From: Schmidtea nova
Taxonomy: Eukaryota
NCBI GenBank assembly: GCA_044892505.1
Contig: CM097882.1
Coordinates: 511,934,001 to 511,998,000 of the forward strand
DNA length: 64,000 bases
Direction of reading: 5' to 3'
Shown: one piece after another, positions 1-27,514 of the stretch
Position numbering within the stretch: position 1 is the stretch's first letter
Layout: each line of letters starts with the position of its first letter
Translations under genes and position numbers: made by a program
The notes under the pieces: model-generated
What the model saw: only the letters and a program-made list of their open reading frames with translations
The model's database searches: none
What the model was told of the DNA's origin: nothing

Positions 1-180
1 ACAAATTCGCAGTTAGCGCGTATTCTACCGGTTGCTGTGTTTTGATTCATCTTCACCTTTTGGCGTTTTCCACTTAATTGTTGGATTTTTAATGGAAGCT
101 AAGGTTAAAAATGGAATCTTGCGCGTTCTCTACCTATGGGGTTATCGCTTTATTAAAACAAATTGCGTTTTGGCCCAACA
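1..180 (-). repeat. LTR copy, partial (3' LTR if the element is minus-sense)
   Basis: No mismatch seen against 17208-17387 over 180 bp; the minus strand begins TGTTGGGCC. Confidence 0.8.
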
Positions 181-766
181 TAAAATACTCGGGGGCCCGC
201 AAAAATTGCGTCCCGCAATTTCTCAGAGGGGTTAAGAACCAAGACTAATCAAAGGTCAAAAGGTTGTACATTATACACGAGCTACTTGGTCGTGATCATG
301 CCGTTCGCGACAATAAAAATAAAAAAAAATTAATAAAATTATACATATACATAAATATGAGTCTACATCGACTCGCAAACAAAAAAAAATTAAATGTAAT
401 ATATGTGCCTACAGCGGCTAATCAAAGTTCAATATGAGTCTACAACGACTCGGATAAAAGTTTTACCAAGTTTATTAAGTTTGTTGAATTATCAATTTTA
501 TTATTGAATTGGTGGGATCTTCGACTGGAATAGTTTGAAGGACTCGTTATTGATCAACGGTTTCTTGTCATCTTCCCTTCGGGATTTCAAATGATTCTTT
601 ATTACATTGTTGATTTGGGTTTAATTGGCCATTTACAGGGGCATTACGATTTTTACACAGGGTCATGATTTAAATGATGCTGAAGTATTGTTAAAGATGA
701 GGATACAAATAGATGGATAGATTAAATGAATGGAAGAAAATACATGAGTTGTCGAATCGAATCGTA

Positions 767-1579
767 TTATTGTTTATAGAAATAATTCATCTGCACCGAG
801 GTTGTAGATGTCTCAGGATTAGGAGGTTCTGGAACTGGATCTTCAAATATTGATCTTAGAAAATTCTCTGACGGGTTGTTGTCTTCATGGGTGATTCGTT
901 TAATGGTATTCAACTGGATTTTTGCTTTCTCTAATTTCATTTTTTCTACTCCGATTGATGCAACAATGCTAAGGATCATTATGACCGTGAAAAGACTGAT
1001 GCCTTGTAGAACGACTGTGATGGCTGCTTCTCGGTCTCTGACGTCTTTGTTGGTTGATCCTTGTTTAGGGATAATCTCCCTTTGCTTTTCGGGTAATATC
1101 AATTGTTTTATAATTCTCTCGGTTTGATGAAGTTGAGTTTTTAGTTTTTGATTTAACTCCTCTGTGAAACTTGATCTTTCCTCATTAACTTCATCTTTAT
1201 TATTTAGAGATTTTTCTATTAACTTGCTCAATTTCTTTAGTTCGGTTGTTAACTGTTTGAAGAATGATTGGCTTTCGAGTTGTTTCTTTAGTTGAAGATT
1301 GTTTCTTTTGGTTAAGGAGATTTGTAATTGGATTAATTGTTGAGTTTCATTTCTCAATTGTTTAAGGATGGTGATTGAATCTTCTCTGGATTGGGGACAT
1401 TGTTGACATTGCAGTTGGATCTGTTGACACTCCTCATTTCTGGTGATACAAATTTCTTGATAGCTTACACATATGCTATCGGCTCTTCTAAATGGATGGC
1501 TTGCATAACATTGACTCAATGCTTCTTCGCTTCGGCAGTTTGTAATTATAAATACCACGATGGTTGTTGTGATCCTCAT
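767..1579 (-). CDS. Predicted type-I membrane protein (signal peptide, Cys-rich segment, coiled coil, TM helix, cytoplasmic tail); last ORF of the cassette
   Basis: 270-aa open ORF. Hydrophobic N-terminus MRITTTIVVFIITNCRS, six Cys in aa 24-61, heptad-rich middle, TM-like AAITVVLQGISLFTVIMILSIVASIGV. Confidence 0.75.
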   Translation of the reverse strand: MRITTTIVVFIITNCRSEEALSQCYASHPFRRADSICVSYQEICITRNEECQQIQLQCQQCPQSREDSITILKQLRNETQQLIQLQISLTKRNNLQLKKQLESQSFFKQLTTELKKLSKLIEKSLNNKDEVNEERSSFTEELNQKLKTQLHQTERIIKQLILPEKQREIIPKQGSTNKDVRDREAAITVVLQGISLFTVIMILSIVASIGVEKMKLEKAKIQLNTIKRITHEDNNPSENFLRSIFEDPVPEPPNPETSTTSVQMNYFYKQ

Positions 1580-1686
1580 TAGATTGCTCTTTTTCTATAG
1601 ATTTATAGATTCAAATTTGTTTAATGATTTGTCAACTTTTCTCTTTTATATTTTTACAGGGATATTTACATGAGTTTAGATATATT

Positions 1687-2262
1687 TTATTCTTTCGTCT
1701 CTTCATTTAGCTTTAGCGGACTTTCTGGCTTCCAGTTACCCATTTTTGCAATCTCGTCTGCTTCTTTTCGCCTTTGTTCTTTGAGGACGTAATTTTCTGC
1801 CGTTTTGATTTCTACAACTTTCTTTGCTTTGAACGTATCAAATTTTGCTTCGATGATTTCACTTTTCAACTTTATTATCTGTTTCTCTCTTTTTATAATC
1901 TTTTTCTGTTTGTTCTTCAATGATCGTTGTAATGACTCGATCGTAATTCTCCTTTTATTATCAGTGTTCTGTTCACTGCTTATTTCCCTTTTGAGTCTGT
2001 CAATCTCTTGCTTCTGTCTGTCGCAATATTTTTGAGTGAGACCATTTTGTTGGCGAAATAGATAATTTTCTCGCTTGATTATTTCCATCGTCTCGCACTC
2101 TTGCTCTATTTGTGCGATATATTTTCTATCTTTGCTCACTACTTCCTTCAATTGGTCTATTTGGTTTTGATAATATTGCTCTGTTGCTCTTTTCCATTTT
2201 TTGAATCTTTCTTTTGATATCGTTTGTTGTTCTGGTTCTGATCTTTGCTTCAATAATCTCAT
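1687..2262 (-). CDS. Coiled-coil protein of unknown function (element cargo)
   Basis: 191-aa open ORF, K/E/Q/I/L heptad composition, acceptor TTATAG 3 nt before the ATG. Confidence 0.7.
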   Translation of the reverse strand: MRLLKQRSEPEQQTISKERFKKWKRATEQYYQNQIDQLKEVVSKDRKYIAQIEQECETMEIIKRENYLFRQQNGLTQKYCDRQKQEIDRLKREISSEQNTDNKRRITIESLQRSLKNKQKKIIKREKQIIKLKSEIIEAKFDTFKAKKVVEIKTAENYVLKEQRRKEADEIAKMGNWKPESPLKLNEETKE

Positions 2263-2526
2263 TTTCTATAATTTGAATTTTCATAACTCTTTTCTACAGT
2301 TTTATTAATTTTGTTTTTGTTTTTATCATTTTTATCATTTTCTAATTTTTATTTGTTTTTCATTTTTTTTTTTTTTCTAATTTTTATTGAATTTTTATTT
2401 TTTCTGCTTTTTATTTAATTTTTTTTGGATATATTTTACAACTTTTGCTTTTTACATTTCTTTACAACGTTTTCTTTTTACACTACCTTTCAATTTCTTT
2501 TTACACTTTACATTCACTTTTATTAT

Positions 2527-3210
2527 TTATACAAACGTCTCTTCAATTTCTCCGAACCCTTCATCTTCGATTTGAGGATTTTCTTGCTCCAAATGTACAG
2601 GTTGTATTGGTGTTGGATATAGTGGCCATAGAATTATTGGAGGTTGATTTTGTAGGCTCTGAACTCTCTCTCGCAAAGTTCTTGAGATTTCTATCTCTTC
2701 ATCTAGCAAATAGGTCATATAATCGAGTTCTTCACTCAGCTGTTCCTTTTCTATCTCGAGCTCTCTCGTATTTTCCATGTTTTTCAACCTTTCAATCTCT
2801 CTTTCATAGTTTTGGCGGTTTTCTTCCAAACTTTGGATAGCCATTTCAATCTCATACTGCGATTGCTGGATCGCTTTCTCACATTCGGCCTTTGTTTCTT
2901 CTATCTGCCGTCGCTGGTGTTGAATGACAATGTCTTTATGCGTATTTGTTCCTCGATATCCGTTGACTTCACGGTTTGCAATAGTCAATTCAATTGTCAA
3001 TTCTTCAATACTTCTATCATCCATGTTTTTCTGTTGATCATATTGCCTGTTTTCAAATTCCAGATATTTGATACGAGCTTCTTGATTCCTGGTAAATTTC
3101 ATTCTCCTTTGATTCCATTCGGTTTTTAATTGAATTTGCCGTCTTAATTCTTTGTTTTCTATCTCTTGCTTTTCTGCATTTTCCCATAATTCTGCTTCAT
3201 TTATTGACAT
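2527..3210 (-). CDS. Coiled-coil protein; reading frame is open upstream to 3372 and overlaps the preceding ORF in the -1 frame
   Basis: 227-aa ORF rich in E/Q/R/N heptads; no stop in this frame between 3372 and 2530. Confidence 0.65.
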   Translation of the reverse strand: MSINEAELWENAEKQEIENKELRRQIQLKTEWNQRRMKFTRNQEARIKYLEFENRQYDQQKNMDDRSIEELTIELTIANREVNGYRGTNTHKDIVIQHQRRQIEETKAECEKAIQQSQYEIEMAIQSLEENRQNYEREIERLKNMENTRELEIEKEQLSEELDYMTYLLDEEIEISRTLRERVQSLQNQPPIILWPLYPTPIQPVHLEQENPQIEDEGFGEIEETFV

Positions 3211-3305
3211 CAGCTTCTTTGGGAATTCGCGTAGTTCGTCTCGAGTTCTTTTCCAGGTCTTTTTCCATGTTCTGGCTTGTTCTATTAGCCACTTTATTTG
3301 ATGCT

Positions 3306-4070
3306 TTATGCTTCTTTCTCTGAACTGTCCGTTTTCAACTGGAATATTTCTTTTCTGAGTTTCTCCGTTTCCTCATGACGTATGTCTGCATACCAATGAC
3401 ATTCCTCTTTCAGAGCGTCGATTTGAACGTCTCTCCGTCTTAGTAATTCTTCCTGTAACATTTTTCTGTGTCGAGCCATTTCCAATAAATCTTGGTGTTC
3501 TTGTTTCCATTTCCTAGCCTCTGCTTTAACTTTTCTAATTATCTTTTCTTGTTCGCTTTCAGGTTCAATGTTTCTTGTTCTGACTTTAAGCTTCTTTTGA
3601 GGTTGTCCTCTCAAGGCAAATGCTTCATCTCGACACTTTTCCCATTTCTTTTTCATGGCTTCATATCTGTTTCTTTCACTTTCGAGTTGTTGCTGATAGA
3701 ATCTTATGGAGTTGTCATACCTTGTTTCGGTATCTCTTTTATAAGTTTCGAGCTCATCTTTTCTTAATCTCGCTTGGTTTTTCAACGGTACCGACTTTCG
3801 TTGTTCGTGCTCGAGTTTTCTCTCCATTTCTTTGTACTCTCGTTTATAATTTTCTAGTTCGGCTTCGATATGCGCCTTGTCGATTATTATCTTTCGTAGT
3901 TCCTCATTTTCCTCTTTTATTTTATTGATCTCTTGGGTTCGTTTTTCAATCATTTTAACGTTCTCTTGGATGGCTTCCATTCTTTGTTCATAATTTCTCA
4001 TTTGATTTAGTTGCTCTTGTCTTTTGGCCATCTCCTGATCTAGGATGTCTATCAATTGTTGTATATTCAT
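3306..4070 (-). CDS. Long coiled-coil (SMC/myosin-tail-like composition) protein
   Basis: 254-aa open ORF of E/K/R/Q heptads, acceptor TTTCAG 1 nt before the ATG. Confidence 0.7.
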   Translation of the reverse strand: MNIQQLIDILDQEMAKRQEQLNQMRNYEQRMEAIQENVKMIEKRTQEINKIKEENEELRKIIIDKAHIEAELENYKREYKEMERKLEHEQRKSVPLKNQARLRKDELETYKRDTETRYDNSIRFYQQQLESERNRYEAMKKKWEKCRDEAFALRGQPQKKLKVRTRNIEPESEQEKIIRKVKAEARKWKQEHQDLLEMARHRKMLQEELLRRRDVQIDALKEECHWYADIRHEETEKLRKEIFQLKTDSSEKEA

Positions 4071-4205
4071 TCTGAAATAATAATAACATGGGTAATTTCC
4101 TTTTGTTTATACATTTTTTTGTTACTCATGCTTATTAAATAATACTTGTATACATCAATTGAAATTAAAATCTTTACAATTTATTTACAAAGTTGCTTAT
4201 TTGGA

Positions 4206-4655
4206 TTATTGATCGGCATAACGGAGATATAATAAATTTCTGTTTACACTTTCTGTTAACAAAGCTTGTTCATTTTTCCATTGTGCATAGGCTTGATTCA
4301 ACATCCTGCTTAATAATTCACATTGCGTTTTCCATGATAACTCTTGCGTCATTGTCTGCTGATAAACCATCGGAGCTGATATTGATTGAGTCTGGCTATT
4401 TGTTAGTTGTTGATTTAATATGAATGTCGTTTGAATTGGGTTCATGGTTTCATCAAATAGTGGAATTTCGACTTGGTATATCAGATTTCTATCATCAATT
4501 GTTGGATTTTGCGTTTCATTTTCGATTACTGGGGTTTGCAGTGACCTTTCTCTTTCTCGTATATTGGTATCTTCTGGAAACTGAATTTGATTTGATGGTT
4601 CATTGAACGTTGGAACTGATGTTTGATAACTTTGACTCTCGTTGTTCGGATTCAT
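4206..4655 (-). CDS. Q/N/T-rich protein with a C-terminal helical segment, unknown function
   Basis: The ORF track starts at a TTG (4664); the first ATG is at 4655, 2 nt after acceptor TTGACAG. About 149 aa. Confidence 0.6.
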   Translation of the reverse strand: MNPNNESQSYQTSVPTFNEPSNQIQFPEDTNIRERERSLQTPVIENETQNPTIDDRNLIYQVEIPLFDETMNPIQTTFILNQQLTNSQTQSISAPMVYQQTMTQELSWKTQCELLSRMLNQAYAQWKNEQALLTESVNRNLLYLRYADQ

Positions 4656-4806
4656 TTCTGTCAATAATTACACAATATTATCATTTGTTTTTCCCAGTTT
4701 TTAGGTATTCAATTTTTTGGATTTTTAAATTTTTATTATACAAATATATTCTACTTTTATAGTACAATATAATTTTATACACTATATACACTGTTCCTTC
4801 CACTGG

Positions 4807-7800
4807 TTACTCTGACAACTTGCGTTTCGACGACATCCTGATGTTCTCATCTGGCTCGTCGGTTAATATGACTTTTATGTCTTCTTGGGTGACTTTTGAA
4901 CCATTATGTGTTACTATCTGACATACGAGTGTTCTAAACATTTCTTGTGCTGCTTTCCTTTTGTAAATCCAGATTTTGTATTTTGCATCCCGCTTCAATC
5001 CATTTATTCGGATTTCTCCTCTTTCTGCTCGTTGGCATTTGACTGGATTATCTCCTTTACTTTGCAAGTTGATGCTACTCCAACATGCTTCTTCATTATC
5101 TGCTCCTGATGTTAATACTTGTACTGGTTTTCCCTTGTCATCAGCTTCCGTTCCTTTCAATGTTGACAGCATCAGTTTCAGCAATATTATGTCTTTTATT
5201 CGAGTTTTATGTAGACATGCTGTTCGTTTTTCATAATTTGAAGTTTCTTGCTTGAGTTCATCACTTTTGTTCCCAATTTCATCGTTATTGCTTTTTCCAT
5301 CATCTTTCTCGTCTTTGTCATTGTTTCTGTTGATACTTTCATTGTCATCTTTCTTTGTTTTGTTGTTGTTATTCCCTTCATCTTCATCGTCAGGCTTATT
5401 GTGATAATCCGAACCACCCTCGGTTTCGTTTAAAATGTCGTCCTCGACATTTATTAGTTTTATTATTTCCTCATATCTTTTCGCTATTTCATCTGCTTCG
5501 GCTTTTATATTTGCTCTCTTGGTTATTTCATCTTTGGCGTTGTTCCAGCTTCGGTGAATTCTGCTTTCTTTTATATTTTCCTTCCATATGATGACTTGCT
5601 GATATAATTCATGTCTTTTAGCTCCAATTCTTTCTTTTTCTTTTTTGTTGTTCGTAAACCTGAAATCAGGTCTTTGCAGCAATGCTTTAATCGTTTTACA
5701 CATTTTCCATTTTCTTTTCATGGCTCTTTTCATTATCATATTTTCACCGTCTTCAAATCTGTCATTGACATTTATCACTCCTTCGTGCGTAACTGGATGT
5801 AACCATTTAATCATTTTTGCTGTTGTTTCGTCGGCATCTTTGTTCACTGCATTTACTAATGGATTTGGATCTGAACTGAGCACTTCAATATCTTCTTCTG
5901 TAGCATTTGACATAATATATTTGATTATTTGATGGTTATTTGCTTGCACTGCATAAGATAACACCGTTTCATTTTTATCATCTCTTTCTTTAAAACTTGA
6001 TCCGGTTCTCATCAGTTCTGCTATGAGTTTCTTGGATCCTCCTTTTTCAATTGCTACCATCAAGGGTGTTTGATCTTTCCAGTTTTTCGTGTTGGTATGT
6101 TGCTTGCACTTTTCCATGAGTTTTATGATTTCAAACATTCTCTGTTCATTCCCACTTTTTATTGCGTGATACAATGGTATCTCATCTTTAAAACTGGCAA
6201 TTGTAAATAATATTGGTAATCTTTCTTTTATGGTATTCATCGCTTCTGTCGTTTCATTTCCTTTAGCATATTCCTCAACCATTAAGCTTACTCCTCCCAA
6301 TATTTCAAATAGATTTTTACTTTTTGACCATTCTGGCATAATTTCTTTGGTAATCTCAATGATCAATTCCATCTTTTTGCGGTGCTCCATTTTTACATCG
6401 TCAACTATCTTAGGTTGTTCAGATATTGTTGTCGGCTGATTTACTTTTCTGCTCGCAGTTAATATACGATGTAGCCAATCGTCATTTTTATTCTCTCGAA
6501 ACATACATACTTGTCCTTTTCTGGTCATTTCTTGATTTGATTGTTCTGTCGCTGTTTCTCTTGTGCAATTTTCTTCAATTTGGTGTTTCAACTTCATCGT
6601 ATTCAAATCAATTACAGATCCTTTTAACAGTTTTGGTATTAAGTCTGTTCCAATAATGCATGATGCACCCAGTTGTTTTATTACTGTCAAATAAGTTGAT
6701 ATTTTTACATTTCTGTATTCGATGTCCGTCCATATTTTTCCAACGATATTGACAGATTCTTTGCTGCATGTTATTACGTCTACTGATGTTTTCTCAATGC
6801 ATGACCATAACAATTCTGGTATCATGTCGATATCTATTGCTGATATATTTGCGCCAGTATCTATCATCGCGTCTACTTTTACGCCATTAACTTCGATGTT
6901 AATTGTAAGTGTTGGTCCAGCTGGAGTTTTCATCATTGCCATTATCGTTGTTTTGGGATTATCTTCACCTGTCGCTTTTCTGGTCAACTCGCTTCCTACA
7001 ATTTTATCAACAGTTAATTTATTACTTGTTTCGATTTGTATCGGGGTTACACCGATTTCTATATCATCATCCAGCGATTCTCCATCATATTTCAAGTGAA
7101 ATGGTAAATTGAATGGTAATCTCTCTTTTATCTCTTTGATCTTTGTTGTTAATGATACATTCATCTCTATTTCTTCTATACTCGGAAACTGAATTTTCAA
7201 TCTGCACATCTGTGGGTCATCGTTTGTTTGTTCCAGTTGTTTCCATTTTCTCATGATGTCATCAAATTGTGTTAAATACCAAGGGCATAAACGTCTGCAT
7301 TTCTCGATTTCTCTCACTATTAATCTCATGTTTGATATATTTGCACTATTTTTTATAACCCATTTTAGTAATTCGGTTGTTGTTTCACATTGATTTCCTG
7401 CACTCTTGCTTAGGTTACTGATTAATCGTTCGGTCTTTGACGTCTCTGTTTGTCTTGGTCTTTCGAGCTTCGCTGATTTCCTCTTTTCCTCCGACTTCTG
7501 ATTCATTTTCGTCATTTCTTCTATGGAAATGGTTAACAATCTTTGTGCCACTTCTTCTAATTTGATTGTCGTAGATTCATCCCATTTCTCGTCCATGCTA
7601 CATGTATCATCATTGCTTCTTCTTTCTCTTCTTTTTCGGTTATATTTCTCCACAAACTTCTTCTTTTCTTCTCCCTCCATATCTTTTACTGAAAATTCAT
7701 ATACATTTCCCTTTCTTTCGATTTCAACGTCTGATAATTCGGTTATCATTTCATTTACTTTTCCTTCGATATTCCGTTGTAGTTGCATTTTCATTGTTAC

Positions 7801-7917
7801 TACTTCTTTTTCTTCTTCCTGTAAATTATCTTCTACTTTTGGACTGGTTAGTCTCTGCTCCTCTTTTAATAAATTATCTTCTGAGTTTACACTGGTAATT
7901 TTCTGATTCTCCTCCAT
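4807..7917 (-). CDS. 1036-aa multidomain protein: ubiquitin-like domain + retropepsin-type aspartic protease + ankyrin repeats + FN3-like C-terminal domain
   Basis: Ubl pattern aa ~237-305 (EIEMNVSLTTKIKEIKERL...HLKYDGESLDDD). Protease aa ~335-445 (IEVNGVKVDAMIDTGANISAI...CIIGTDL). Ankyrin repeats aa ~577-755 (PLYHAIKSGN, DQTPLMVAIEKG, ETVLSYAVQANN, NPLVNAV). IRINGLKRDAKYKIWI resembles the FN3 E-F strands (weakest call). Confidence 0.85.
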   Translation of the reverse strand: MEENQKITSVNSEDNLLKEEQRLTSPKVEDNLQEEEKEVVTMKMQLQRNIEGKVNEMITELSDVEIERKGNVYEFSVKDMEGEEKKKFVEKYNRKRRERRSNDDTCSMDEKWDESTTIKLEEVAQRLLTISIEEMTKMNQKSEEKRKSAKLERPRQTETSKTERLISNLSKSAGNQCETTTELLKWVIKNSANISNMRLIVREIEKCRRLCPWYLTQFDDIMRKWKQLEQTNDDPQMCRLKIQFPSIEEIEMNVSLTTKIKEIKERLPFNLPFHLKYDGESLDDDIEIGVTPIQIETSNKLTVDKIVGSELTRKATGEDNPKTTIMAMMKTPAGPTLTINIEVNGVKVDAMIDTGANISAIDIDMIPELLWSCIEKTSVDVITCSKESVNIVGKIWTDIEYRNVKISTYLTVIKQLGASCIIGTDLIPKLLKGSVIDLNTMKLKHQIEENCTRETATEQSNQEMTRKGQVCMFRENKNDDWLHRILTASRKVNQPTTISEQPKIVDDVKMEHRKKMELIIEITKEIMPEWSKSKNLFEILGGVSLMVEEYAKGNETTEAMNTIKERLPILFTIASFKDEIPLYHAIKSGNEQRMFEIIKLMEKCKQHTNTKNWKDQTPLMVAIEKGGSKKLIAELMRTGSSFKERDDKNETVLSYAVQANNHQIIKYIMSNATEEDIEVLSSDPNPLVNAVNKDADETTAKMIKWLHPVTHEGVINVNDRFEDGENMIMKRAMKRKWKMCKTIKALLQRPDFRFTNNKKEKERIGAKRHELYQQVIIWKENIKESRIHRSWNNAKDEITKRANIKAEADEIAKRYEEIIKLINVEDDILNETEGGSDYHNKPDDEDEGNNNNKTKKDDNESINRNNDKDEKDDGKSNNDEIGNKSDELKQETSNYEKRTACLHKTRIKDIILLKLMLSTLKGTEADDKGKPVQVLTSGADNEEACWSSINLQSKGDNPVKCQRAERGEIRINGLKRDAKYKIWIYKRKAAQEMFRTLVCQIVTHNGSKVTQEDIKVILTDEPDENIRMSSKRKLSE

Positions 7918-8674
7918 TTCTTTCTGAAAATCGGCTACAAACTTTCTAATATTGTGGATTTTACTTCTTTATTTCTCAGTTTTATTTCTTTTTAATTTCC
8001 TCTCGTCGTTTTTAATAGATTTGACTCTTTATCTTTCGACTTTACGAACTTGGTTGGTGTGGTAATATTGTCAATTTGTGTTTAATATCGATTGCTGATC
8101 TTTCTTTTATCTTCAATTGGATCTTCTTCGATTTATTTTCTTTTACTTCTTTCCTTTTCAATTAGACTTCTTTTTCTTCTTTTCTTCTATATATACCTCT
8201 TCAATAACTGATTGATTTGACTGTTTCTTGACTTGTCTTTGATCTGTTGGACAATCTAAATAAAAATATCGCTTCTTCATCGACGCCATTTACCCCCCTT
8301 TTACTCTGAGCTCAGATTTTAAATTATCTATATCTCGTAATAATTATCTATATGGTCGTATCAATTATCTATACCCTGATAATAACAATAATAATAACAA
8401 TAATAATACTATAATAACAATAGGATCCTGTCGACTCGTTTTCATACTCATCTCGGTGTTCGAGGTAATAAAAAAAATGTCTTGTTCATTATCTATTCAT
8501 GGCCATTATTTTATTTCCTAGGTATTTCTCGATATCTTTGTCTGCTCTTGTTAACGGTTTCTCTTACTACATCTTAAGTATTCGCGTTCAACGTTTCTCT
8601 CTATCATAACAAAATTATAACTGCAGTTTTATTTAATTCTATTTCTCAAACGTTTTTCCTAAATTTCTCAACAA

Positions 8675-9296
8675 TATTCACAAACATTGGACTCTCAAAG
8701 TCTCTCACATACATGAACTCTCAAAGTTTCTCAATATTCACAAACATTGGACTCTCAAAGTCTCTCACATACATGAACTCTCAAAGTTTCTCAATTATCT
8801 GGACTCTCAAAGTCTCTCATACATGAACTCTCAAAGTTTCTCAATTATCTGGACTCTCAAAGTCTCTCATACATGAACTCTCAAAGTTTCTCAATTATCT
8901 GGACTCTCAAAGTCTCTCAATTATCTGGACTCTCAAAGTCTCTCCCAGAGCGCTCAATTATCTGGACTCTCAAAGTCTCTAAATTACCTGGACTCTCAAA
9001 GTCTCTCAATTATCTGGACTCTCAAAGTCTCTCAATTATCTGGACTCTCAAAGTCTCTCAATTATCTGGACTCTCAAAGTCTCTCAATTATCTGGACTCT
9101 CAAAGTCTCTCAATTATCTGGACTCTCAAAGTCTCTCAATTATCTGGACTCTCAAAGTCTCTTACATACATGAACTCTCAAAGTTTCTCAATTATCTGGA
9201 CTCTCAAAGTCTCTCACATACATGAACTCTCAAAGTTTCTCAATTATCTGGACTCTCAAAGTCTCTCGCATACATGAACTCTCAAAGTTTCTCAAT
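8675..9296. repeat. Minisatellite array, ~26-bp period, about 23 copies of the core ACTCTCAAAGT with two alternating variants
   Basis: Units TGGACTCTCAAAGTCTCTCAATTATC and CATGAACTCTCAAAGTTTCTCAATTATC read directly from the sequence. Confidence 0.95.
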
Positions 9297-10322
9297 TTTT
9301 CTCGGCCGTCTTCGATTATTCTCTTTATACTATTTAATCACTCGCTTTCCTATTCTCGATTTTTAATTTTTCACAAATAAATTCGCTGTTACTGACTGGT
9401 TTTCTCAAATTGTTCTACTACTTCTCAGTTACGAGTTTCTTAACTACCATGGTAAATTTTTCTACTATAATCGTCGGAATTCACTTTCTACTCTTTCGAC
9501 TTTCTAAAATCTGCAGCATCTTTCTCTTTATTAATGTTACTGTCCTCTACCTCAGTGTACCAATCATGCCTTGGCAAACTGGTGTATAAGACGAACATTA
9601 CGGGTTAAGCCCTTTCACCTAATTCAAAATCGTAAAATAATCGCGTTAACTCGTTTCGCAATTTGTGATGATCAGTCACAAACGAAATTTCGCCAACATA
9701 TGCGATGGATATCCTATTCTACTCTCTTTCCTCAAGGTGATCAAGTTTTTTCCCCGTTTGTTGTCTACTAATTTTTCAACAATAATAAAAAAAATTGGCG
9801 TACTATCTTTTGATAGCTCTGTTAAAATTTGGCGTACTATCTTTTGATAGCTCAGTTATGAATTTGTGTACTATTTTCCTGTTTCCTACTCAGACACTCA
9901 TTTATCGCTCTATTTCAGAAGATTCTCCTTATAAAATCAACTCCTATAACGCTACTTATTGCTCGTCCTAATTCATACATATTTATATATATAATGATCA
10001 GTATAATAATGATAATCAATATAATAATGGTAATAAGAAAGATTATAATAATGAAATTCGGTTCAATATAATAATGATGAGGAGGATTTATAATAATAAT
10101 AATAAAGAAAATTCAAAAAGAAAAGAAAATAACTTTGCCACAAATTCCCATTTTCCTAATGTTTGATTTTTCGGCATTAGCCGTTACTTGTTATGTTTTT
10201 TCACGATTCTCAGTTATTAATTACCTAGTGTTTTTTGTTTATTTAATTTTTATAACGGTTTGTATTACTGGATGATCGACGAAGTTCAACACGACTAAAA
10301 CGTTTATTTCGAACGACATTCT

Positions 10323-10805
10323 TTATGAACAGAATACGACGATTTTGTCATCAATTGTCTGTTTGCAGATTACGCATCGCTTTATTTCTCTAGAGCACGG
10401 CTGGCAATAACACAAATGCCCACATGGCATGAACAAAATGTTCGCTTCTTTTTGTCGACAAATATAGCATCCTTCAAACGAATCGATCTGTTGATTTACC
10501 GATCTCTCTAGCTTGTCCATGATTTTATCGATTTTACCAATCCATTCTTGTATTTTTAGATTAAAATTTGGATTATTCAGTCGCAATCGTTGTAATTCGT
10601 AAATTGTTTCTAACGAAACATCGTTTGTTGTTCCTACAATTCCTGCAATCACTATTAGGTTCTCAGGTTGTGGTCTAGGATTCAACAATAATTCATCTTT
10701 TATTCCATTTACTCGTTCGAGTTTCTCGCTCAACACCTGCAATGGGTCATTTTTAAAATCGAAAAACAACTCGATTCGTAGTAAAATATGCTCAATCGAT
10801 TCCAT
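10323..10805 (-). CDS. RING-HC (C3HC4, IAP/XIAP-like C-terminal type) putative E3 ubiquitin ligase with a helical N-terminus
   Basis: CYICRQKEANILFMPCGHLCYCQPCSREIKRCVICKQTIDDKIVVF at the C-terminus; acceptor TTTTAG directly abuts the ATG. Confidence 0.85.
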   Translation of the reverse strand: MESIEHILLRIELFFDFKNDPLQVLSEKLERVNGIKDELLLNPRPQPENLIVIAGIVGTTNDVSLETIYELQRLRLNNPNFNLKIQEWIGKIDKIMDKLERSVNQQIDSFEGCYICRQKEANILFMPCGHLCYCQPCSREIKRCVICKQTIDDKIVVFCS

Positions 10806-11804
10806 CTAAAATATTCATGATGACTGGTGTTTATAACTTTTTGAATTAACCATTCATTATAATTTGAACGAAAAATAAATAATAAAAACTTCAACAGCTA
10901 TTTACACGAATTTTTATAATTTTTTATATATTTTTGTATTTTTTCAAAACTACTGTTAACAGAATAATCAGCCATTTTTATACATATTTTTTATATTTTT
11001 ATATTTTTATAATTTTCTCCATTCGTCCATATTCGATATTTTTCGAATAAAATATTACAATAATCAGCCATTATGTACATAATTTTTATGATTTTTTAAA
11101 TTTTTAATATACTAATATTTTCTAAATAAAAAAAAATAATTAAACATTTATTTACACAATTTTTTCATGATTTTTGCACTTTTTATCAATTTTAAAATAA
11201 TTATATTTTTTATTTACGGTATTCACAATTTTGGTAATTTTTCGTTTACTGGAAGCAATTTTTGTGTATTCAAAAATTTATTCTCTATGTGGTTCGTGTG
11301 GACTCCATCCCATGGTCATATAACATCTCCTTTTATTGGGGTCCTAATTTTGTGCATCTCAAAATTTTCATATTTGCGTTAAGTCTCACTTTTTTCTGTT
11401 TGATTATATTTGTTTTTAAGTCGTTGCTTGATTTTATTTTATGATTTCATAAGATTTTAGAGTTATTCCCGCTTTCGATTCCCGAATTGAGTCGCGATCA
11501 ACATTCCAATATCACCATGCATCATTCTGACTTCAACAATCTATCTTTTTCAACATTCAAACTTCAAACTCATTAGACTATATCATTCATTCTCTACTTT
11601 TATTATCATATTAATTAAAACAAACAATTCACGCATCGCTCCATTTTCGCCGTTATTTCTTCTAGACCCGATACTTTCCATGTCCTTCCTTGCCAACAAA
11701 ATAAAATTACAGGGGTCATACCTCGGTCATTCTTAATCAAATAGCATAACATTGATATCGCCAGTAATAATAATGACATCTACAGTAACACTCATGATAT
11801 TAAC

Positions 11805-11955: not shown

Positions 11956-13099
11956 GCGTTATACGGCAATTTACCCAATATATTTCTTATATATTATTAC
12001 GTAATAATTATAATAAAAATATAATAAATCCGTCTTATTTTTATATTATTTGACCAAATTACTGTTTTTACTGTTAAAAATGGCAATAATAATAATCCTG
12101 ATACCTATACTATCATTATTACTTGGTGTTACTGCTTTCTTGGGTCAAAATTCCAAAATTTCTTCAGTCTTTTAAATTTCTTAGCGGCGATTTTCTACAC
12201 TTTTTGCGGATTCCGGTGTCATATTCTATCTTTCGAGGTATTTTCCACTTGCCAGTGCTGCGTACTCACTTTCTATGCTCTATGGACGTTGTTTGAACAA
12301 TTTTACGATTTTTGGTTGTTTGTGGGATTCATTTGTCGCGGTTTGGTGTTTTTACTATTTTAGCCGTGATTTTCTTAGACTTTTGGCCCATTCCGGCTCA
12401 ACTTTTTATCTTATGCTATGTTTGATGTTTATTTATATTAAAGACACTTATTCTACGCTCTGTTGTTATTATTCATTCTCATTTTCAATCGTTGGCTGTT
12501 CGTGGGGCTTAAAGATCGTTTTTACGGCTTAACTTTTATTCGCTTTCGCGGTGATTTTGATTCGGAACTTTTTATTTTCCAAATTTTTCCAAATCTTAAT
12601 TCAAAATGGTACTTAAAATAATATTCTCTACNNNNNNNNNNNNNNNNNNNNNNNNNNNNNNNNNNNNNNNNNNNNNNNNNNNNNNNNNNNNNNNNNNNNN
12701 NNNNNNNNNNNNNNNNNNNNNNNNNNNNNNNNNNNNNNNNNNNNNNNNNNNNNNNNNNNNNNNNNNNNNNNNNNNNNNNNNNNNNNNNNNNNNNNNNNNN
12801 NNNNNNAATCCTAATAATAATACTTAATATGGTATAAAATAACTATTGTCGTAAAAATAATAATAGTAATATAAATAATATTAATAATCAAGCATAAATT
12901 TTTTCCCATTTTCGTCGAAAATACTCAAATGATTATTGATTTTTATAAAACTTTCACCAAATCTCGTTTTTCTTTAAAATACTTTTATCTTTCCAACGCA
13001 AAAACATTAATAAATTCCCACGTAAAGTCATTTCCATTGATTTTCGCTTCAAACAAAACAAACTAGATGGGATGTATCCCGGCTGAGCCCCCAAATTTT

Positions 13100-13317
13100 T
13101 ATATGGTGGGTTGTTGACCGTCAATATGACCTTGACGTTTCCATGGCTCTCATCGGACAACCCAACACATAAAATATTGAAATTACCACCTTGTTACCCG
13201 TCACTATGTAACGTTGGTACTGTAACAAGTGGGTGGGTATTCGCAATCAGTGAGCGTCGTCAATACGAAACTATGATTGACCGAATATCTCCTGGGTCCA
13301 AGGGCTACCGATAGAAG
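13100..13317 (+). repeat. Copy of a diverged interspersed repeat; homologous to 17520-17737 in inverted orientation
   Basis: GAAACTATGATTGACCGAATATCTCCTGGGTCCAAGGGCTACCGATA aligns with the reverse complement of 17522-17570, and the alignment extends ~220 bp. Confidence 0.75.
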
Positions 13318-16300
13318 GTTTCTTGCCCTTTTTGTCCCCTTCTTCGACGATTTATCTTTAAGCATTCAACAAAATTTTATCGGCAATTCAACATTAATAT
13401 TCTACCTAACTATAAATTTATTATTGCATTCAAATAAATCATTCCGAGCATCAAAACACTAATAAAACATTAAATTTTACTTATATTATAATTTATGTTA
13501 ATTATTAATGAAAGTATTCTAAAATAAAATTTTTAATTTACATTTGCATTTACGATAAAATCAAGACTTTAATTCTTAATTTGTGAAAAATATTTTAATG
13601 CTACATTAGGTTTTTTTCTATTTTCATTTTTATATTTATAACTAATTTACTTTTATAACTAATTGATATTCCGAAACAATTTGTTTCAATCCATCATTCA
13701 ATCAACAACAAGCCGAACACCATTCAAATTCACCAAGCATAATTTTCTACGCAAATCATTTCTCTCTATTGGCAAAACAAGTAAATTTTTAAGTTAAGTG
13801 ATCTGCTGAAATTAATTCTTTTCATAGCCCTCAATTTCAAAACACAGATGGAAACTCAGTTCGGAAATCTTAGCAACAACGTCTTATCACTTTAATCTAT
13901 TTGACAGATTTGAATATCTAACAATTATCCAAACAATTAATCCAATTGACAAATCCCAATTAATCAACAATCCGCGACAATGTCTAATGATCATGACTCC
14001 AATAAACCAGCGTTGTGGTCATCCATGTCAGTGACAAATACTGCTTAACAATATCTTTTCTTAGTGCTGAATTTAATATATGTACTTTATTTGCATTTTT
14101 ACTTTTTATGTAAAATGGTTTTTATCATACAAAAGGGTAACAATTAATTATTTTAATTAAAATACTTAAAGTTTTGCTAGACGAAATATAATAATCTTTG
14201 AATTTCATGTGAAAATAAATTGATTGTCACTAGATGAAATATAATATTATTTTAAAATAATATACCAAATTTTACTTTAAAAGGCACCATAAATTCACAA
14301 TAATACAATTTTTTAACTTAAACATTATTGATTTTAAAGGCAATCTTGAAAACTTCCTAATATCCGTTACAAATAAAAAGGTTCCACACCAAATGTTTGT
14401 GGTGGGTGAATGGATGAAACCTTGGCATTGTCTTTTTGGAGGTATGCATGTTTACGTATGATGTGGGATACTATCATTTCGAGCTTGATTGTTGATACAC
14501 TTTTACAGGTTTATTATGAATTGTTCATTGATAGTACAGGAGATTGTATGTGATTATATGTGTCTGTATGTTGACTTGAATGTTGGATGAGAATAAATAA
14601 TTTATTTGGTGGATGAGGTGTAGTATGATGACTGTGTGTTCTATTGTTACTGTTGGGTTTGTGTGTGATTGTATGATGAGTGATTTAAAACAATTGAGTG
14701 CTTGTGAGTGTGGTTAGACGAACGATTCTAACTAGAATGTCTGTGTGGAATTTTGATAAGGTTTGTTGGTGTGTATGTGATTGTTGGATGTTATTGAATG
14801 GTACTGTGCATGTGTGTGTATTGTATTTTATGTGTATGTTGTTTGTATATTAATATGGATGATGCTATTGAGTGAAAAGGGTGTAAATCTTTGCAATGAG
14901 TGATGTATTATTATTTTAAGATGTCGTGGGGGGTTATATTATAAATTAAATAAATTGTATAAAATATTTTTTAAGTTAAAAATAAAAAAAATTTAAAATT
15001 AAACTAATGGTAATGATTTTTAGATCAAGATAATAATAATAATTTTTAGATCGAAATAATAATAATAATTCTCATAATACTTTTTTACAAATTTTTAAGT
15101 TTTAAAATTTCTACGAAAAACAATTAACGATAAGGTTTATAATTTTTTATAATGTCGATTTGAATTTACAATTTTTATACTTTAAGAATAGATAAAAAAA
15201 ATTTCTATAAAATCTCGAATTCAGATTTTTTATAAAATAATAAAATTTATTAATATAATAATAAAATTTCAATCTAAATTTTCATGGGGTTTAATATAAC
15301 TTTTGATTTTCAAATTCTCGGGAATTTTACGAAATGATAAAATCTTTCATATATTAATAACATTAGGAACTAAATTTGGTTTACAATTTTTCCATATAAA
15401 ATCTTTTCAACATAATAAAAAGCAAATTTCTATTTCTGATCCAAATGAAATGATAATAAATTTTTATCCATAAATTCGAGATCTAAATAAGCATTTAATC
15501 TAAAAAATTTTATATGCTAAATAAAAATAAAATAAAAATAAGTTACAAATTTTTCAGCGAATATTTTTAACCTCAAGCAAAGTAAATTTCGGTTTTGTTG
15601 AGCATGAATTTCCCAATTAAGTGTACGCGAACCTTTCGGGACACTTCACTCAGGAATTTCAGGCTCTCGAAAAACAAGATTCACAGGAAAACTTATTTAG
15701 ACCACAACGAGCTTTAATTCAGATTAAATCAATACTTGTTTCACAATTTATTTCACTTCATGAGCATTATTCTAGACTTTGAGCATTATTTCGAACCATT
15801 TTCTTTTCATCATCAGCATCCATTTTACTTGCATTTTCTTATGAGATGAACGTTGTTGAGAGTGTGAAGGTGAAGGCGAGTACGAGTCGATTTTTTAATC
15901 AATAATATTTCCTATTTTAGATTTCAAGACATGAGTTAGAAATTATTATGTTGTATTACGAAATTGCTTATGTAGATAATAAAAATATGATACTCTATTA
16001 TAATACAAATCATTAGTATAACAAAACCTTGCTCTTGGCCAAACCGCGATTCCCCAGTTGGGATGACGCGAATTTGGATGTATGAGCCTCACCTTAAAGT
16101 GGAAATATGGGCTGGCCGATTACCAATCAGACAACGATCCACCCAGGCTACTAACAGATCCGCACAACCAAGGCTGGACGGATCGTCAGAAGATATGGGA
16201 GAAAAAAAAAAATTTTTTATTTATTTTCATAATTAAATTTAGTTATCGAATTTCAATGAGATCTTTCCTGAATTATTTTGGGAAATTGTGGCTCGTGATA

Positions 16301-16482
16301 ATGATTATGACAACAAAAAAACTAAGTTATTAATCATGAAAATACTTTAATAATATAAAATTGACCATAATAAATAAAATGACAAATAACATATTAAATA
16401 AAAAAAGGGGGGAATGGGATGATCGTCAGGCATGACGGACGACCATTCCAATCCCCAATGAGAATAACCAAAATCAAACAAA

Positions 16483-16491
16483 TCCTTACGT
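16483..16491 (-). promoter_or_regulatory. Candidate major splice donor in the element leader (AC|GTAAGG, GT at 16489-16488)
   Basis: Consensus-like 5' splice site ~280 nt downstream of the putative PBS; use is not demonstrated. Confidence 0.35.
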
Positions 16492-16752
16492 TTGTCCAAT
16501 TAACTTCTGCTACGATTTCTTTCAAACAAATTAATTTTTTCTTAGAAATTTGGAACGATTTTTCCACAAATTTTCTTGGAATCAACTTCTGATAGTAACT
16601 TCTTGGAATCAAATTCTGATATTAGCTTTTCTCTTCTCTTCTTGAAATCAAATTAGCTTTTCTTCTTGCAATCAAATTCTCAAGTTGGATTTCACAAAAG
16701 TTATTTTTCGCAATTTCTCCGTAAATTAATCAAGAAAAATTTTCCACCAAAT

Positions 16753-16770
16753 TCTGTCTGAAATCTGCCA
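16753..16770 (-). promoter_or_regulatory. Putative primer-binding site TGGCAGATTTCAGACAG
   Basis: TGG starts 3 nt (AAA) after the proposed LTR end ...CCATCA; I cannot assign the tRNA. Confidence 0.4.
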
Positions 16771-16773
16771 TTT

Positions 16774-17387
16774 TGATGGCGGTATATATACCATCAAATT
16801 TTTTCTACCTCCGGTAGTGCAATAAAACAAATTGTTCTAGAAGTTTCTCTTAATTTTTTCTAAATTAATTCTAATGATTTTCCGAAAATTAATTCCATAT
16901 TTTTGTATAATAATTTTTTATAAACTATAAATAATTTATTTTAATTAAAAATTTTTATGTTTGAATCGAAATTTGTTCGATTTGATTTAATTTATGATTT
17001 TCGATCCATATTAATTCTTTCTATTGTTATATGTGAAATTTTGTGATAAATTCACAATTTTCCTCTAGAATTGTGTTAATTTTTCTGCACTGAGGATTTT
17101 TATGACAAAATTCTGTTCTTTATGGGCACTTTCAATGGGTTTTCCGCCTATTCTAGCTTCCAAACATTCTGCTTTTAATTTCTCTCGAGATTTCCGTGGA
17201 AATATTTACAAATTCGCAGTTAGCGCGTATTCTACCGGTTGCTGTGTTTTGATTCATCTTCACCTTTTGGCGTTTTCCACTTAATTGTTGGATTTTTAAT
17301 GGAAGCTAAGGTTAAAAATGGAATCTTGCGCGTTCTCTACCTATGGGGTTATCGCTTTATTAAAACAAATTGCGTTTTGGCCCAACA
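16774..17387 (-). repeat. Proposed full 614-bp LTR (5' LTR)
   Basis: TG...CA termini (minus strand TGTTGG...CCATCA). The distal 180 bp are duplicated at 1-180. The right boundary is firm; the left boundary is inferred. Confidence 0.6.
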
Positions 17388-26600: not shown

Positions 26601-26740
26601 TTCATATACTGTGCTGCAGTTAAACGGCTGCGCTTTCCCGTGTTAGCCTTGCCCATGATGGGTAAAAACTGTAAAATTAGAAAATAAATAATGCCACTAT
26701 AGACAGTCGCTTATGTCGCCTATGCCTAAAGCCAGCGCTG
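23642..26740 (-). mobile_element. hAT DNA transposon (ZMYM1-like/DUF4371 transposase), defective
   Basis: Imperfect 15-bp TIRs (AAATGCCGGCCTTAG / CAGCGCTGGCTTTAG). 8-bp TSD TTCACATA (23634-41) vs CTCACATA (26741-48). Confidence 0.85.
23966..26657 (-). pseudogene. hAT transposase: TTF-type Zn finger, DUF4371-like region, hAT C-terminal dimerisation domain; frameshifted
   Basis: WLMYSTSVNKVYCFCCK; LCATRWES; LRILLTLPITVASAKRSFSKFKLIKTYLRSTMSQNRL, spread over several frames. Confidence 0.9.
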
Positions 26741-27514
26741 CTCACATAAGTGCATCTTAATTATCTATTACCCTATGCTATCACATATCTATCTTAATTC
26801 CTTCAAAAGTAATTCACCAAAATGATAAATACTCCTTTGTAATCCCCTTTTCTCCCGTCCAAATATGGTTCAAAGTCGCTGCATCGGCCCAACCCCCGAA
26901 GGAGTCACAGCTGAGGGGCTTTTCACCTCGGGGTCAACAACCACCGAGGCGCAATTTATGGATTTTACCCCTGATATTATGAGGGTTTACACACAAATGC
27001 ATAGAACAAAATTTCACTTCAAAATTTTATTATAAACTACCAAAAATGATAATGACAAAATATTACAATCAAATCAAATACAAAATCATACTTGCGAACT
27101 CAACTGGCTGACGAAATACAAAATTGTACTCACTGCAAAATTAATGCCAAGTAAGTTTAGATTGTGATTTTTCAGCGTCTATTTATACTAAATCTATTGA
27201 AGCTTATATGTTATTATTTAAATCATGATTTTAACGATTCAACTTACTTATTGTTTTTAATAAGTGATTATTTATTTATAAATTTAATTTTATAATTCTA
27301 TTTATTTATTTTCTAAAATATTTGTTTTTAATTCCATTAAATAATATGTATATCCAGTTTTTGTACGTTAATTGATTAATTAAAACAATCAAATTTAATT
27401 TAAATAATAAAAAAACTTGGCAATGATTTAATAATAGAAAAACTAAGTAAATTCAACATAAACGCGATATATTTTGATTGTATAACAATCTTCTTCAGGC
27501 AGCAATCAGGACAA

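What the first reader, a model, noticed from the sequence alone, without database searches (positions are those of the whole stretch)
1577..10812. Operon-like cassette: six of seven ORFs have a 3' splice acceptor right before their ATG
Seen on the minus strand: TATTTTAG|ATG (RING, 0 nt), GATTTTCAG|aaagaaATG (1036-aa ORF, 6 nt), TATTGACAG|aaATG (4655, 2 nt), TATTTCAG|aATG (4070, 1 nt), AATTATAG|aaaATG (2262, 3 nt), ATCTATAG|15 nt|ATG (1579). The only ORF lacking one (3210) looks like a frameshifted continuation of its neighbour. Spacers within the 767-7917 block are only ~90-260 nt. Known: acceptors adjacent to start codons mark spliced-leader trans-spliced operons (nematodes, flatworms) or alternative splicing from a shared leader, as in complex retroviruses. 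Inference: one LTR-driven precursor is resolved into separate mRNAs, a polycistronic expression strategy unusual for a retrotransposon.
Basis: partly seen in the sequence, partly recalled or inferred. Interest (0 to 1): 0.87.

Follow-up and report, generated by a model that had tools for sequence, protein, structure and literature searches.

The report
Giant retrotransposon with retrovirus-style spliced cassette
A giant flatworm retrotransposon keeps a splice-acceptor motif just before almost every extra gene it carries and a donor motif behind its promoter box, so it likely splices one short leader onto up to nine genes, as complex retroviruses do, though no RNA data were available to show the splicing.

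Summary
The window holds a young, non-autonomous 21.5-kb copy of a Burro-type giant LTR element in a planarian-type genome. Full copies carry eight or nine ORFs, including a whole TRAF and an IAP, under purifying selection. The YAG before each ATG is kept in nearly all sister copies and in homologous ORFs of three families only 24-36% alike in protein (TNYAG within 6 nt: 20 of 31 accessory ORFs, against 2.5-5.5% of other ATGs). Behind the LTR TATA box all families have an AUG-free leader (0 ATG against 55 expected) ending in a donor motif; GTAAG holds its column in 13 of 16 LTR subtypes. This favours cis-splicing from one LTR leader (about 0.55) over spliced-leader operons (about 0.28). The host does trans-splice: 2,206 genomic SL copies, mostly joined to mRNA starts, none to this element's ORFs. 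New: a TGTAAATA-type motif sits 14-21 nt behind the stop in 16 of 17 spacers. No RNA run was available, so splicing itself is inferred. New variant of a known kind.

The parts
13104..17387 (-). 5' LTR, 4,284 bp, TG...CA; 100% identical to the 3' LTR; 4-bp target duplication TAAC
16781..16792 (-). TATA-like box GGTATATATACC; GTATAWATAC/G form shared by five families
16490..16763 (-). predicted AUG-free leader exon (start inferred about 28 nt behind the TATA box)
   Evidence: 0 ATG, 6.2 expected here; 0 against 55 over 13 leaders
16483..16489 (-). predicted major splice donor AAC|GTAAGGA followed by T-rich sequence
   Evidence: GTAAG at this alignment column in 13 of 16 LTR subtypes
13076..13093 (-). 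primer-binding site complementary to the 3' end of tRNA-Pro(TGG)
10806..10813 (-). acceptor motif TATTTTAG, 0 nt before the RING ATG
   Evidence: AG in 20 of 20 copies (15 TAG, 5 CAG)
10323..10805 (-). 160-aa RING (C3HC4_3, IAP-type) ORF
   Evidence: pN/pS 0.22; homologues 24-30% in three other families
8678..9297 (-). 26-bp tandem array rich in AGATAA (GATA-type word, recalled)
8318..8372 (-). triple AGATAA block conserved in four families; enhancer or internal promoter candidate
   Evidence: (23 of 23 copies)
7924..7932 (-). acceptor motif GATTTTCAG, 6 nt before ATG 7917
   Evidence: 19 of 22 copies
4807..7917 (-). 1,036-aa ORF: mosaic of internal pieces of the family's polyprotein (weak SUMO-like hit, aspartic protease, ankyrin); no Gag, RT or integrase hit
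   Evidence: pN/pS 0.29
4778..4790 (-). post-stop motif TGTATATA + second TGTA (16 and 25 nt behind the stop)
4658..4666 (-). acceptor motif TATTGACAG, 2 nt before ATG 4655
   Evidence: 19 of 19
4206..4655 (-). 149-aa ORF: 5' part of a 211-aa ORF cut by a 3.07-kb deletion at about 4225 that removes the TRAF and IAP ORFs
4175..4189 (-). post-stop motif TGTAAATA + second TGTA
4072..4079 (-). acceptor motif TATTTCAG, 1 nt before ATG 4070
   Evidence: 22 of 22 (20 CAG, 2 TAG)
2527..4070 (-). one 515-aa coiled-coil-like ORF in sister copies, broken here into 254-aa and 227-aa pieces
   Evidence: pN/pS 0.09; homologues 28-31% in three families
2502..2512 (-). post-stop TGTA pair (14 and 21 nt behind the stop)
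2266..2273 (-). acceptor motif AATTATAG, 3 nt before ATG 2262
   Evidence: 21 of 22
1687..2262 (-). 191-aa coiled-coil-like ORF, no family hit over cut-off
   Evidence: pN/pS 0.10
1655..1670 (-). post-stop motif TGTAAATA + second TGTA
1595..1602 (-). acceptor motif ATCTATAG, 15 nt before ATG 1579 (3-4 nt before an earlier ATG in 16 of 22 copies)
   Evidence: AG in 22 of 22
767..1579 (-). 270-aa ORF with hydrophobic N-terminus and a later hydrophobic stretch (by eye), no Pfam hit
   Evidence: pN/pS 0.19 for the 274-aa form
1..180 (-). start of the 3' LTR (continues 4.1 kb beyond the window)

Best explanation
The cassette belongs to a non-autonomous Burro-type LTR retrotransposon, and its ORFs are likely expressed by alternative cis-splicing of one short AUG-free leader from the 5' LTR onto an acceptor placed just before each ORF. 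Shown: the LTRs, PBS, ORFs and their purifying selection; a conserved YAG 0-6 nt before most accessory ATGs; a TATA box, AUG-free leader and conserved donor motif in the LTR; a TGTA pair 14-21 nt behind internal stop codons. Inferred: transcription starts about 28 nt behind the TATA box; the donor at 16489 is joined to one acceptor per transcript (RING, 8256 or 7924, 4658, [TRAF, IAP], 4072, 2266, 1595), giving a nested set of mRNAs whose first AUG opens the chosen ORF; unspliced RNA keeps the PBS and is copied by an autonomous relative; in autonomous families Gag-Pol too would come from a spliced mRNA, because other ORFs and 6-10 kb of leader lie before it. The donor lies before the PBS, so spliced RNAs could not be reverse-transcribed as elements, and it may also shield the 5' LTR from early polyadenylation as in foamy viruses. 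The post-stop motif would be an RNA-protein site (Pumilio-type by recalled consensus) acting on these long-3'UTR mRNAs. Some SL trans-splicing at the same acceptors is expected in a flatworm and is not excluded.
For: Homologous ORFs at 24-36% protein identity keep it; copies switch CAG/TAG but keep AG; distances of 1, 2, 4 and 5 nt and CAG forms exclude an in-frame-stop artefact. Donor: GTAAG at one column in 13 of 16 LTR subtypes, 14 of the 15 others only 48-65% like the window's; donor-like sites at +89 to +142 in four more families; 0 ATG in 2,545 nt of 13 leaders against 55 expected, and 55 ATG in the same lengths behind the donor. Gag-Pol: acceptor 338-652 nt upstream in 5 of 6 elements, AUG-free to the start in 6 of 6. 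ORFs are constrained, pN/pS 0.06-0.29 for nine, 0.48 for one. Precedent for a donor in R before the poly(A) signal and a spliced pol mRNA: foamy virus (PMC3694450, abstract and Background).
Against: No junction is seen. The donor would have to skip up to 15 kb here and about 25 kb in autonomous families past several nearer acceptors. I picked donor positions by eye in families A, B, C and F, one family-B acceptor before Gag-Pol is atypical, and in family G the candidate is GTAAC. A conserved donor could serve only the nearest ORFs or only poly(A) suppression. Six of 31 accessory ORFs have no YAG within 6 nt of the first ATG (two have it before their second Met); the last ORF of each cassette has weak or distant sites. 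Flatworm SL acceptors have the same UUNYAG form (PMC12582326 passages), so the acceptors alone do not choose between cis and trans.
Confidence: 0.55

Rival explanations
1. Spliced-leader operon: the LTR donor serves only the nearest ORFs or poly(A) control, and the downstream cassette is cut into single mRNAs mainly by SL trans-splicing at donor-less acceptors, from the LTR transcript or from an internal promoter just before 8256.
For: The host trans-splices: the planarian SL exon occurs 2,206 times, in the 30 loci sampled joined to varied mRNA-like starts. Spacers of 69-273 nt (three of about 570) fit the <=300 bp operon criterion and 4 of 6 window acceptors are UUNYAG (PMC12582326 passages). 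The post-stop motif marks spacers that have an ORF right behind them and is mostly absent behind last ORFs, as a processing signal would be. The triple AGATAA block lies 74-143 nt before the Gag-Pol acceptor, an outron-like layout.
Against: Conserved donor and AUG-free leader. AATAAA in spacers 27 against 25.8 by shuffling, absent from 6 of 17, and spacers are A-rich, not U-rich; planarian poly(A) sites lack an upstream UGUA signal (PMC5068929 passages). No SL joined to any of this family's ORF starts among the genomic SL copies (64 pattern hits in all, some repeated between calls; the 55 loci fetched from them showed no blastn or tblastn match to the element); weak, because that library comes from another element and may hold only some hundreds of mRNAs.
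Confidence: 0.28
2. Separate promoters or ribosome re-initiation: ORFs are expressed from internal start sites (as env in some Oikopleura Tor elements) or by re-initiation helped by the motif 15 nt behind each stop; the AGs are used rarely.
For: Conserved AGATAA block and array upstream of the main ORF; the motif is tied to the stop codon, not to the AG; precedent for internal promoters in Tor3b/4b (PMC4402516 passages).
Against: Spacers of 69-135 nt leave little room for promoter, exon and intron, and hold no GTRAG (0 against 9, weak control); this reading does not explain why YAG is kept before unrelated ORFs and across 24-36% divergence, nor why the AUG-free leader ends at the donor.
Confidence: 0.12
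3. Chance or relic: AG before ATG reflects A-rich composition or was carried in with captured host genes and has no present role.
For: YAG within 20 nt of any ATG is common (39-47%); sister copies are 93-97% identical, so conservation among them alone is weak.
Confidence: 0.05

Closest known systems
Burro/GYPSM1 giant Gypsy-like LTR retrotransposons of planarians (PMC6431247, passages of the Burro section; the original genome paper was not held)
   Same: Family member c133 (30.1 kb, same LTR at 97%) has one 4,707-aa frame with gag, CCHC, MATH, fusion-type Env, PR, RT, RNase H, integrase and ankyrin hits; other families in this genome have frames of about 5,100 codons; accessory ORFs and BIR/RING/MATH domains are present.
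   Different: The window copy and most sisters are non-autonomous: the polyprotein is reduced to a 1,036-aa mosaic and followed by up to seven separate ORFs with a whole TRAF and an IAP. The passages I saw describe accessory ORFs but no way of expressing them.
Foamy virus gene expression (PMC3694450, abstract and Background)
   Same: Donor inside the LTR, before the PBS and (4 of 5 families) before the first AATAAA; main enzyme ORF predicted to need a spliced mRNA; possible second promoter.
   Different: Gypsy-type element with one giant polyprotein; up to nine or ten acceptors; no transactivator identified; LTR U5 part itself carries ORFs with acceptors.
HIV-1-type alternative acceptor use (recalled, no call)
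   Same: One leader, many weak acceptors each just before an accessory start codon, nested mRNAs.
   Different: Donor lies before the PBS, not behind it; no Rev/RRE-like system was looked for; distances are several times longer.
Flatworm and nematode SL operons (PMC12582326 passages)
   Same: Same-strand ORFs under 300 nt apart, UUNYAG acceptors next to start codons, host with SL.
   Different: Lies in a mobile element with a conserved upstream donor; no enrichment of poly(A) signals in the spacers; SL use not shown.
Oikopleura Tor elements (PMC4402516 passages)
   Same: LTR elements of an SL-using animal that express a downstream gene by cis-splicing from the LTR or from an internal promoter.
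   Different: One downstream gene (env) there; eight or more here.

Membership tests
Burro-type giant LTR retrotransposon | Gypsy-like LTR element with TG..CA LTRs, PBS and target duplication | tested here: met
Burro-type giant LTR retrotransposon | Single giant polyprotein Gag-CCHC-MATH-Env-PR-RT-RH-IN-ankyrin | tested here: met
   met by family member c133; the window copy itself keeps only PR and ankyrin pieces, so it is filed as a non-autonomous derivative. BCL2 and dUTPase were not hit by Pfam at E 0.01; no profile-profile search was run
Burro-type giant LTR retrotransposon | Total length over 30 kb | tested here: inconclusive
   30.1 kb for c133, about 28-29 kb for families A and B, about 24.6 kb for full non-autonomous copies, 21.5 kb for the window copy
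Burro-type giant LTR retrotransposon | Accessory ORFs with apoptosis/ubiquitin domains (BIR, RING, MATH) | tested here: met
Burro-type giant LTR retrotransposon | Sequence identity to the published Burro1-4/GYPSM1 | not testable with these tools
   published sequences not held; protein search of the 1,036-aa ORF found only ankyrin proteins
SL-resolved operon | Host has SL trans-splicing | tested here: met
   2,206 copies of the SL exon, joined to mRNA-like starts in sampled loci; an intact SL-RNA gene was not located
SL-resolved operon | Same-strand cistrons <=300 nt apart with UUNYAG acceptors | tested here: met
SL-resolved operon | 3'-end signals between cistrons | tested here: inconclusive
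   AATAAA not enriched; TGTA strongly enriched but not a known planarian poly(A) element
SL-resolved operon | SL joined to downstream cistrons in RNA | not testable with these tools
   no RNA holder listed; genomic fossil test negative
Complex-retrovirus-type shared-leader splicing (works like) | AUG-free leader ending in a conserved major donor | tested here: met
Complex-retrovirus-type shared-leader splicing (works like) | Several acceptors, each directly before an accessory start codon | tested here: met
Complex-retrovirus-type shared-leader splicing (works like) | Leader-to-acceptor junctions in RNA | not testable with these tools
   no RNA holder listed; no genomic junction copy
Complex-retrovirus-type shared-leader splicing (works like) | Dedicated export or splicing regulator for unspliced RNA | not tested
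   several cassette ORFs have no family hit; no structure work done

The most novel reading that the evidence does not exclude
Burro elements are the first retrotransposons that run true operons: after a cis-spliced LTR leader serves the proximal genes, the host's spliced leader resolves a TRAF/IAP-bearing cassette of up to seven genes, with a Pumilio-type site fixed at the edge of each terminating ribosome controlling the cistron just read.
Probability: 0.22. Interest if true: 0.85.

Novelty: new variant of a known kind. Interest (0 to 1): 0.64.

Why it matters
Burro elements are the largest known LTR retrotransposons and fill much of planarian genomes (3,272 PBS matches here, 19 of 30 sampled from this family), and how their accessory ORFs are expressed was not described in the papers I could see. 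The sequence gives exact, cheap-to-test junctions. If right, a Gypsy-type element has reached or passed the splicing complexity of HIV-like and foamy viruses independently, and expresses whole TRAF and IAP genes as separate proteins. That bears on anti-apoptotic and immune tinkering in a regeneration model and may account for part of the reported planarian TRAF expansion (PMC6109357 passages; the link is my inference). The stop-anchored TGTA pair is an unexplained, sharply placed RNA signal. If the SL reading holds, it would be a mobile operon.

Tried and rejected
RNA evidence: no RNA holder listed. The four runs of unrecorded kind covered LTR, spacers and ORFs evenly, like DNA; 15 of 163 joints and 24 of 4,451 loose ends were shown, none at a predicted junction; no evidence either way. 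Genomic fossils of leader-to-ORF junctions: 2 hits, neither a junction, and 0 hits for the leader end followed by a non-G (no denominator taken, so not used as a conservation test). SL-to-ORF fossils: none; other families were covered only partly. Frame of a possible SL AUG: about 10 of 25 acceptors in frame, as by chance, and homologues change frame; host SL copies 7 of 21 in frame; uninformative. Donor-word depletion in ORFs (GTAAG 25 against 54) rejected as evidence, since ATAAG and TTAAG are depleted as much. Cryptic acceptors are not depleted in ORFs. An in-frame short ORF between the upstream acceptor and Gag in two families is not kept in the window. Rfam: one chance-level hit. Protein search of the 1,036-aa ORF: ankyrin proteins only. 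My first label of the SL-capturing element as Penelope-like was dropped after a DUF1759 hit. Earlier scan notes: nothing. Literature: searches listed no paper on splicing of Burro accessory ORFs or SL operons in LTR elements; the Burro discovery paper, its supplement and the planarian SL papers were not held and could already note spliced transcripts. PMC6880638 (densovirus in tapeworms) gave no SL precedent in the passages seen.


Full report
Setting. The finding lies on the minus strand inside one LTR element: 5' LTR 17387-13104, 3' LTR from 180 on into the neighbouring stretch, the two 100% identical over 4.28 kb, ends TG...CA, 4-bp target duplication. Ten bases behind the LTR stands an 18-nt site complementary to the 3' end of a tRNA-Pro(TGG) of this genome. 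The family is abundant: 2,466 and 6,548 first-look candidates for two probes, 3,272 matches to the PBS pattern, 19 of 30 sampled loci from this family. The genome carries the published planarian spliced-leader exon exactly and giant Gypsy-type frames of about 5,100 codons, so I treat it as a planarian-type genome.

What the element is. I examined 25 stretches of this family. Fifteen carry the full run RING, 1,036-aa ORF, 211, TRAF, IAP, 515, 191, 270/274, some with a further 264-aa ORF or an LTR-borne 190-aa ORF. The two missing ORFs are a complete TRAF (RING, zf-TRAF, MATH; 93-98% coverage by several fish TRAF3/5 proteins from its second Met) and an IAP (BIR + RING). One copy with the same LTR carries a 4,707-aa frame with gag, CCHC, MATH, fusion glycoprotein, protease, RT, RNase H, integrase and ankyrin hits, the layout described for Burro (PMC6431247 passages). 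The 1,036-aa ORF is a mosaic of four internal pieces of that polyprotein at 41-63% identity. All ten ORFs tested are under purifying selection among whole natural copies, pN/pS 0.06-0.29, one 0.48 (whole copies only, so biased to young ones).

The acceptors. The six sites are as stated. Among copies the AG is kept in 20/20, 19/22, 19/19, 22/22, 21/22 and 22/22; the TRAF (second Met) and IAP ORFs have it in 16/16 each; -3 switches between C and T. Because copies are 93-97% alike, the stronger test is other families. Three autonomous families found through the integrase domain, and a fourth through the PBS, have homologues of the RING (24-30%), TRAF (35%) and 515-aa ORF (28-31%) whose spacers no longer align to the window's, yet YAG stands 1-3 nt before the ATG. 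Misses: six ORFs have no YAG within 6 nt, two of which have it before the second Met; last ORFs are weak. Gag-Pol starts have no adjacent site (0 of 4), but a T-rich AG lies 338-652 nt upstream in 5 of 6 elements (window 8256), with no ATG from there to the start in 6 of 6 (about 44 expected in all).

The donor. In every family a TATA-like GTATAWATAC/G is followed by an AUG-free stretch, a donor-like site and T-rich sequence. Within the window's family the LTR 5' part comes in many subtypes; GTAAG holds the column of 16489 in 13 of 16 aligned subtypes, 14 of the 15 others being only 48-65% like the window, with leaders of about 80-330 nt. Over 13 leaders there are 0 ATG in 2,545 nt against 55 expected, and 55 in equal lengths behind the donor. 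An AUG-free stretch that ends at the donor and not at the first ORF is what a spliced leader exon predicts. The donor lies before the PBS and, in 4 of 5 families, before the first AATAAA, the foamy-virus arrangement in which the donor also blocks early polyadenylation (PMC3694450 abstract and Background); so the donor alone does not prove long-range splicing. Donor positions outside the window's family were chosen by eye.

A second signal. In 16 of 17 internal spacers a TGTA starts 14-21 nt behind the stop codon, with a second one 7-12 nt further. Over all 39 ORF ends, 21 have TGTA in that window (shuffles: mean 2.5, maximum 8 of 2,000 runs; unrelated ORFs in the flanks 1 of 27) and 17 have TGTAHATA. 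It is mostly absent behind RING, LTR-borne and last ORFs. It is tied to the stop, not to the AG. TGTAHATA is the Pumilio element and about 15 nt is the reach of a terminating ribosome (both recalled). Planarian poly(A) sites are reported to lack upstream UGUA (PMC5068929 passages), and AATAAA is not enriched in the spacers (27 against 25.8), so a cleavage signal is less likely than a site that acts on translated mRNAs with long 3' UTRs, in the manner of the Rous sarcoma virus stability element (PMC5580461, search listing only). Its function is untested.

Cis or trans. The host trans-splices: the SL exon occurs 2,206 times (reversed control 1), and in the 30 loci sampled it is followed by 24 different mRNA-like starts, captured mostly by another element. 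I used this as a fossil library: four junction patterns for this family's ORF starts gave 64 hits, and the 55 loci fetched from them, which look like host mRNA starts, showed no match to the element. That is weak evidence against SL use. Leader-to-ORF fossils were not found either, as expected for RNAs without a PBS. Flatworm acceptors are often shared by cis- and trans-splicing (PMC12582326 passages), and a transcript spliced at its first acceptor leaves the later ones without a donor, so mixed use is plausible. A triple AGATAA block conserved in four families, 74-143 nt before the Gag-Pol acceptor, and the AGATAA-rich array at 8678-9297 fit the gut-enriched expression reported for BURRO1 (PMC8532177 passages) and may be an enhancer or a second promoter. 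No RNA data could be had.

Verdict. Observation confirmed and extended. Functional acceptors about 0.9; shared-leader cis-splicing as the main route 0.55, SL operon 0.28, internal promoters or re-initiation 0.12, chance 0.05. The element kind is known; the expression layout, the non-autonomous TRAF/IAP cassette and the stop-anchored motif were not found in ten literature searches, but the Burro discovery paper and its supplement were not available to me. New variant of a known kind, interest 0.64.

Noticed in passing
G000, 2,206 sites; e.g. L116-L145, L201-L209: The spliced-leader exon sits behind a common 120-nt element end in (AAT)n tracts and in front of intron-less host mRNA 5' ends (HECTD1-like, kelch-like and others by eye), often as direct repeats 4.5-5 kb apart around a 1,040-1,340-aa ORF with DUF1759, ubiquitin and HSP90 pieces: an LTR-like element that captures SL-capped mRNAs into its repeats, a fossil library of trans-spliced genes.
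   Followed up: partly
window 181-225 (minus strand) and all families: No purine-rich tract before the 3' LTR; instead a conserved GGGACGCAATTTT..GGG.CCCCGAGT block whose reverse complement loosely mirrors the PBS side. Plus-strand priming is unexplained.
   Followed up: no
L091-L110, L051-L052: Gag-Pol frames are open without Met for 100-153 codons upstream of the first ATG (153 in four elements of two families), behind the upstream acceptor; possible non-AUG start.
   Followed up: partly
LTR U5 part in c432, c588, c430, c224 and families A, B, C, G: LTRs carry one or two ORFs of 158-204 aa, most with an acceptor motif; the 190-aa one has pN/pS 0.06.
   Followed up: partly
L264-L266: A copy with an extra 865-aa ORF right behind the PBS, again with TCTATAG 5 nt before its ATG.
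   Followed up: partly
L249-L254: A second non-autonomous family keeping only a Gag-derived ORF between 1.4-1.7-kb LTRs, with the same PBS, TATA, donor and post-stop motif.
   Followed up: partly
L269-L272 (G000:C1 near 459.61 Mb): Tandem array of tRNA-Pro(TGG) genes with a 308-bp period; 1,191 pattern matches genome-wide.
   Followed up: no
window 16768-16781 and 8289-8295: AAAATGGC/AAATGGCG words (YY1-type, recalled) directly behind the TATA box and behind the AGATAA block.
   Followed up: no
window 10735-10768: One contig of run X1 skips 34 nt with GT..AG ends on the minus strand inside the RING ORF; could be a deletion variant or a copied splice.
   Followed up: no
window 23966-29319, 30644-31772, 45408-46963, 49388-50179, 54872-58958: Fragments of other mobile elements (transposase-like, RT-like and gag-protease-like ORFs by eye) and a 586-nt inverted repeat pair at 96%.
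   Followed up: no
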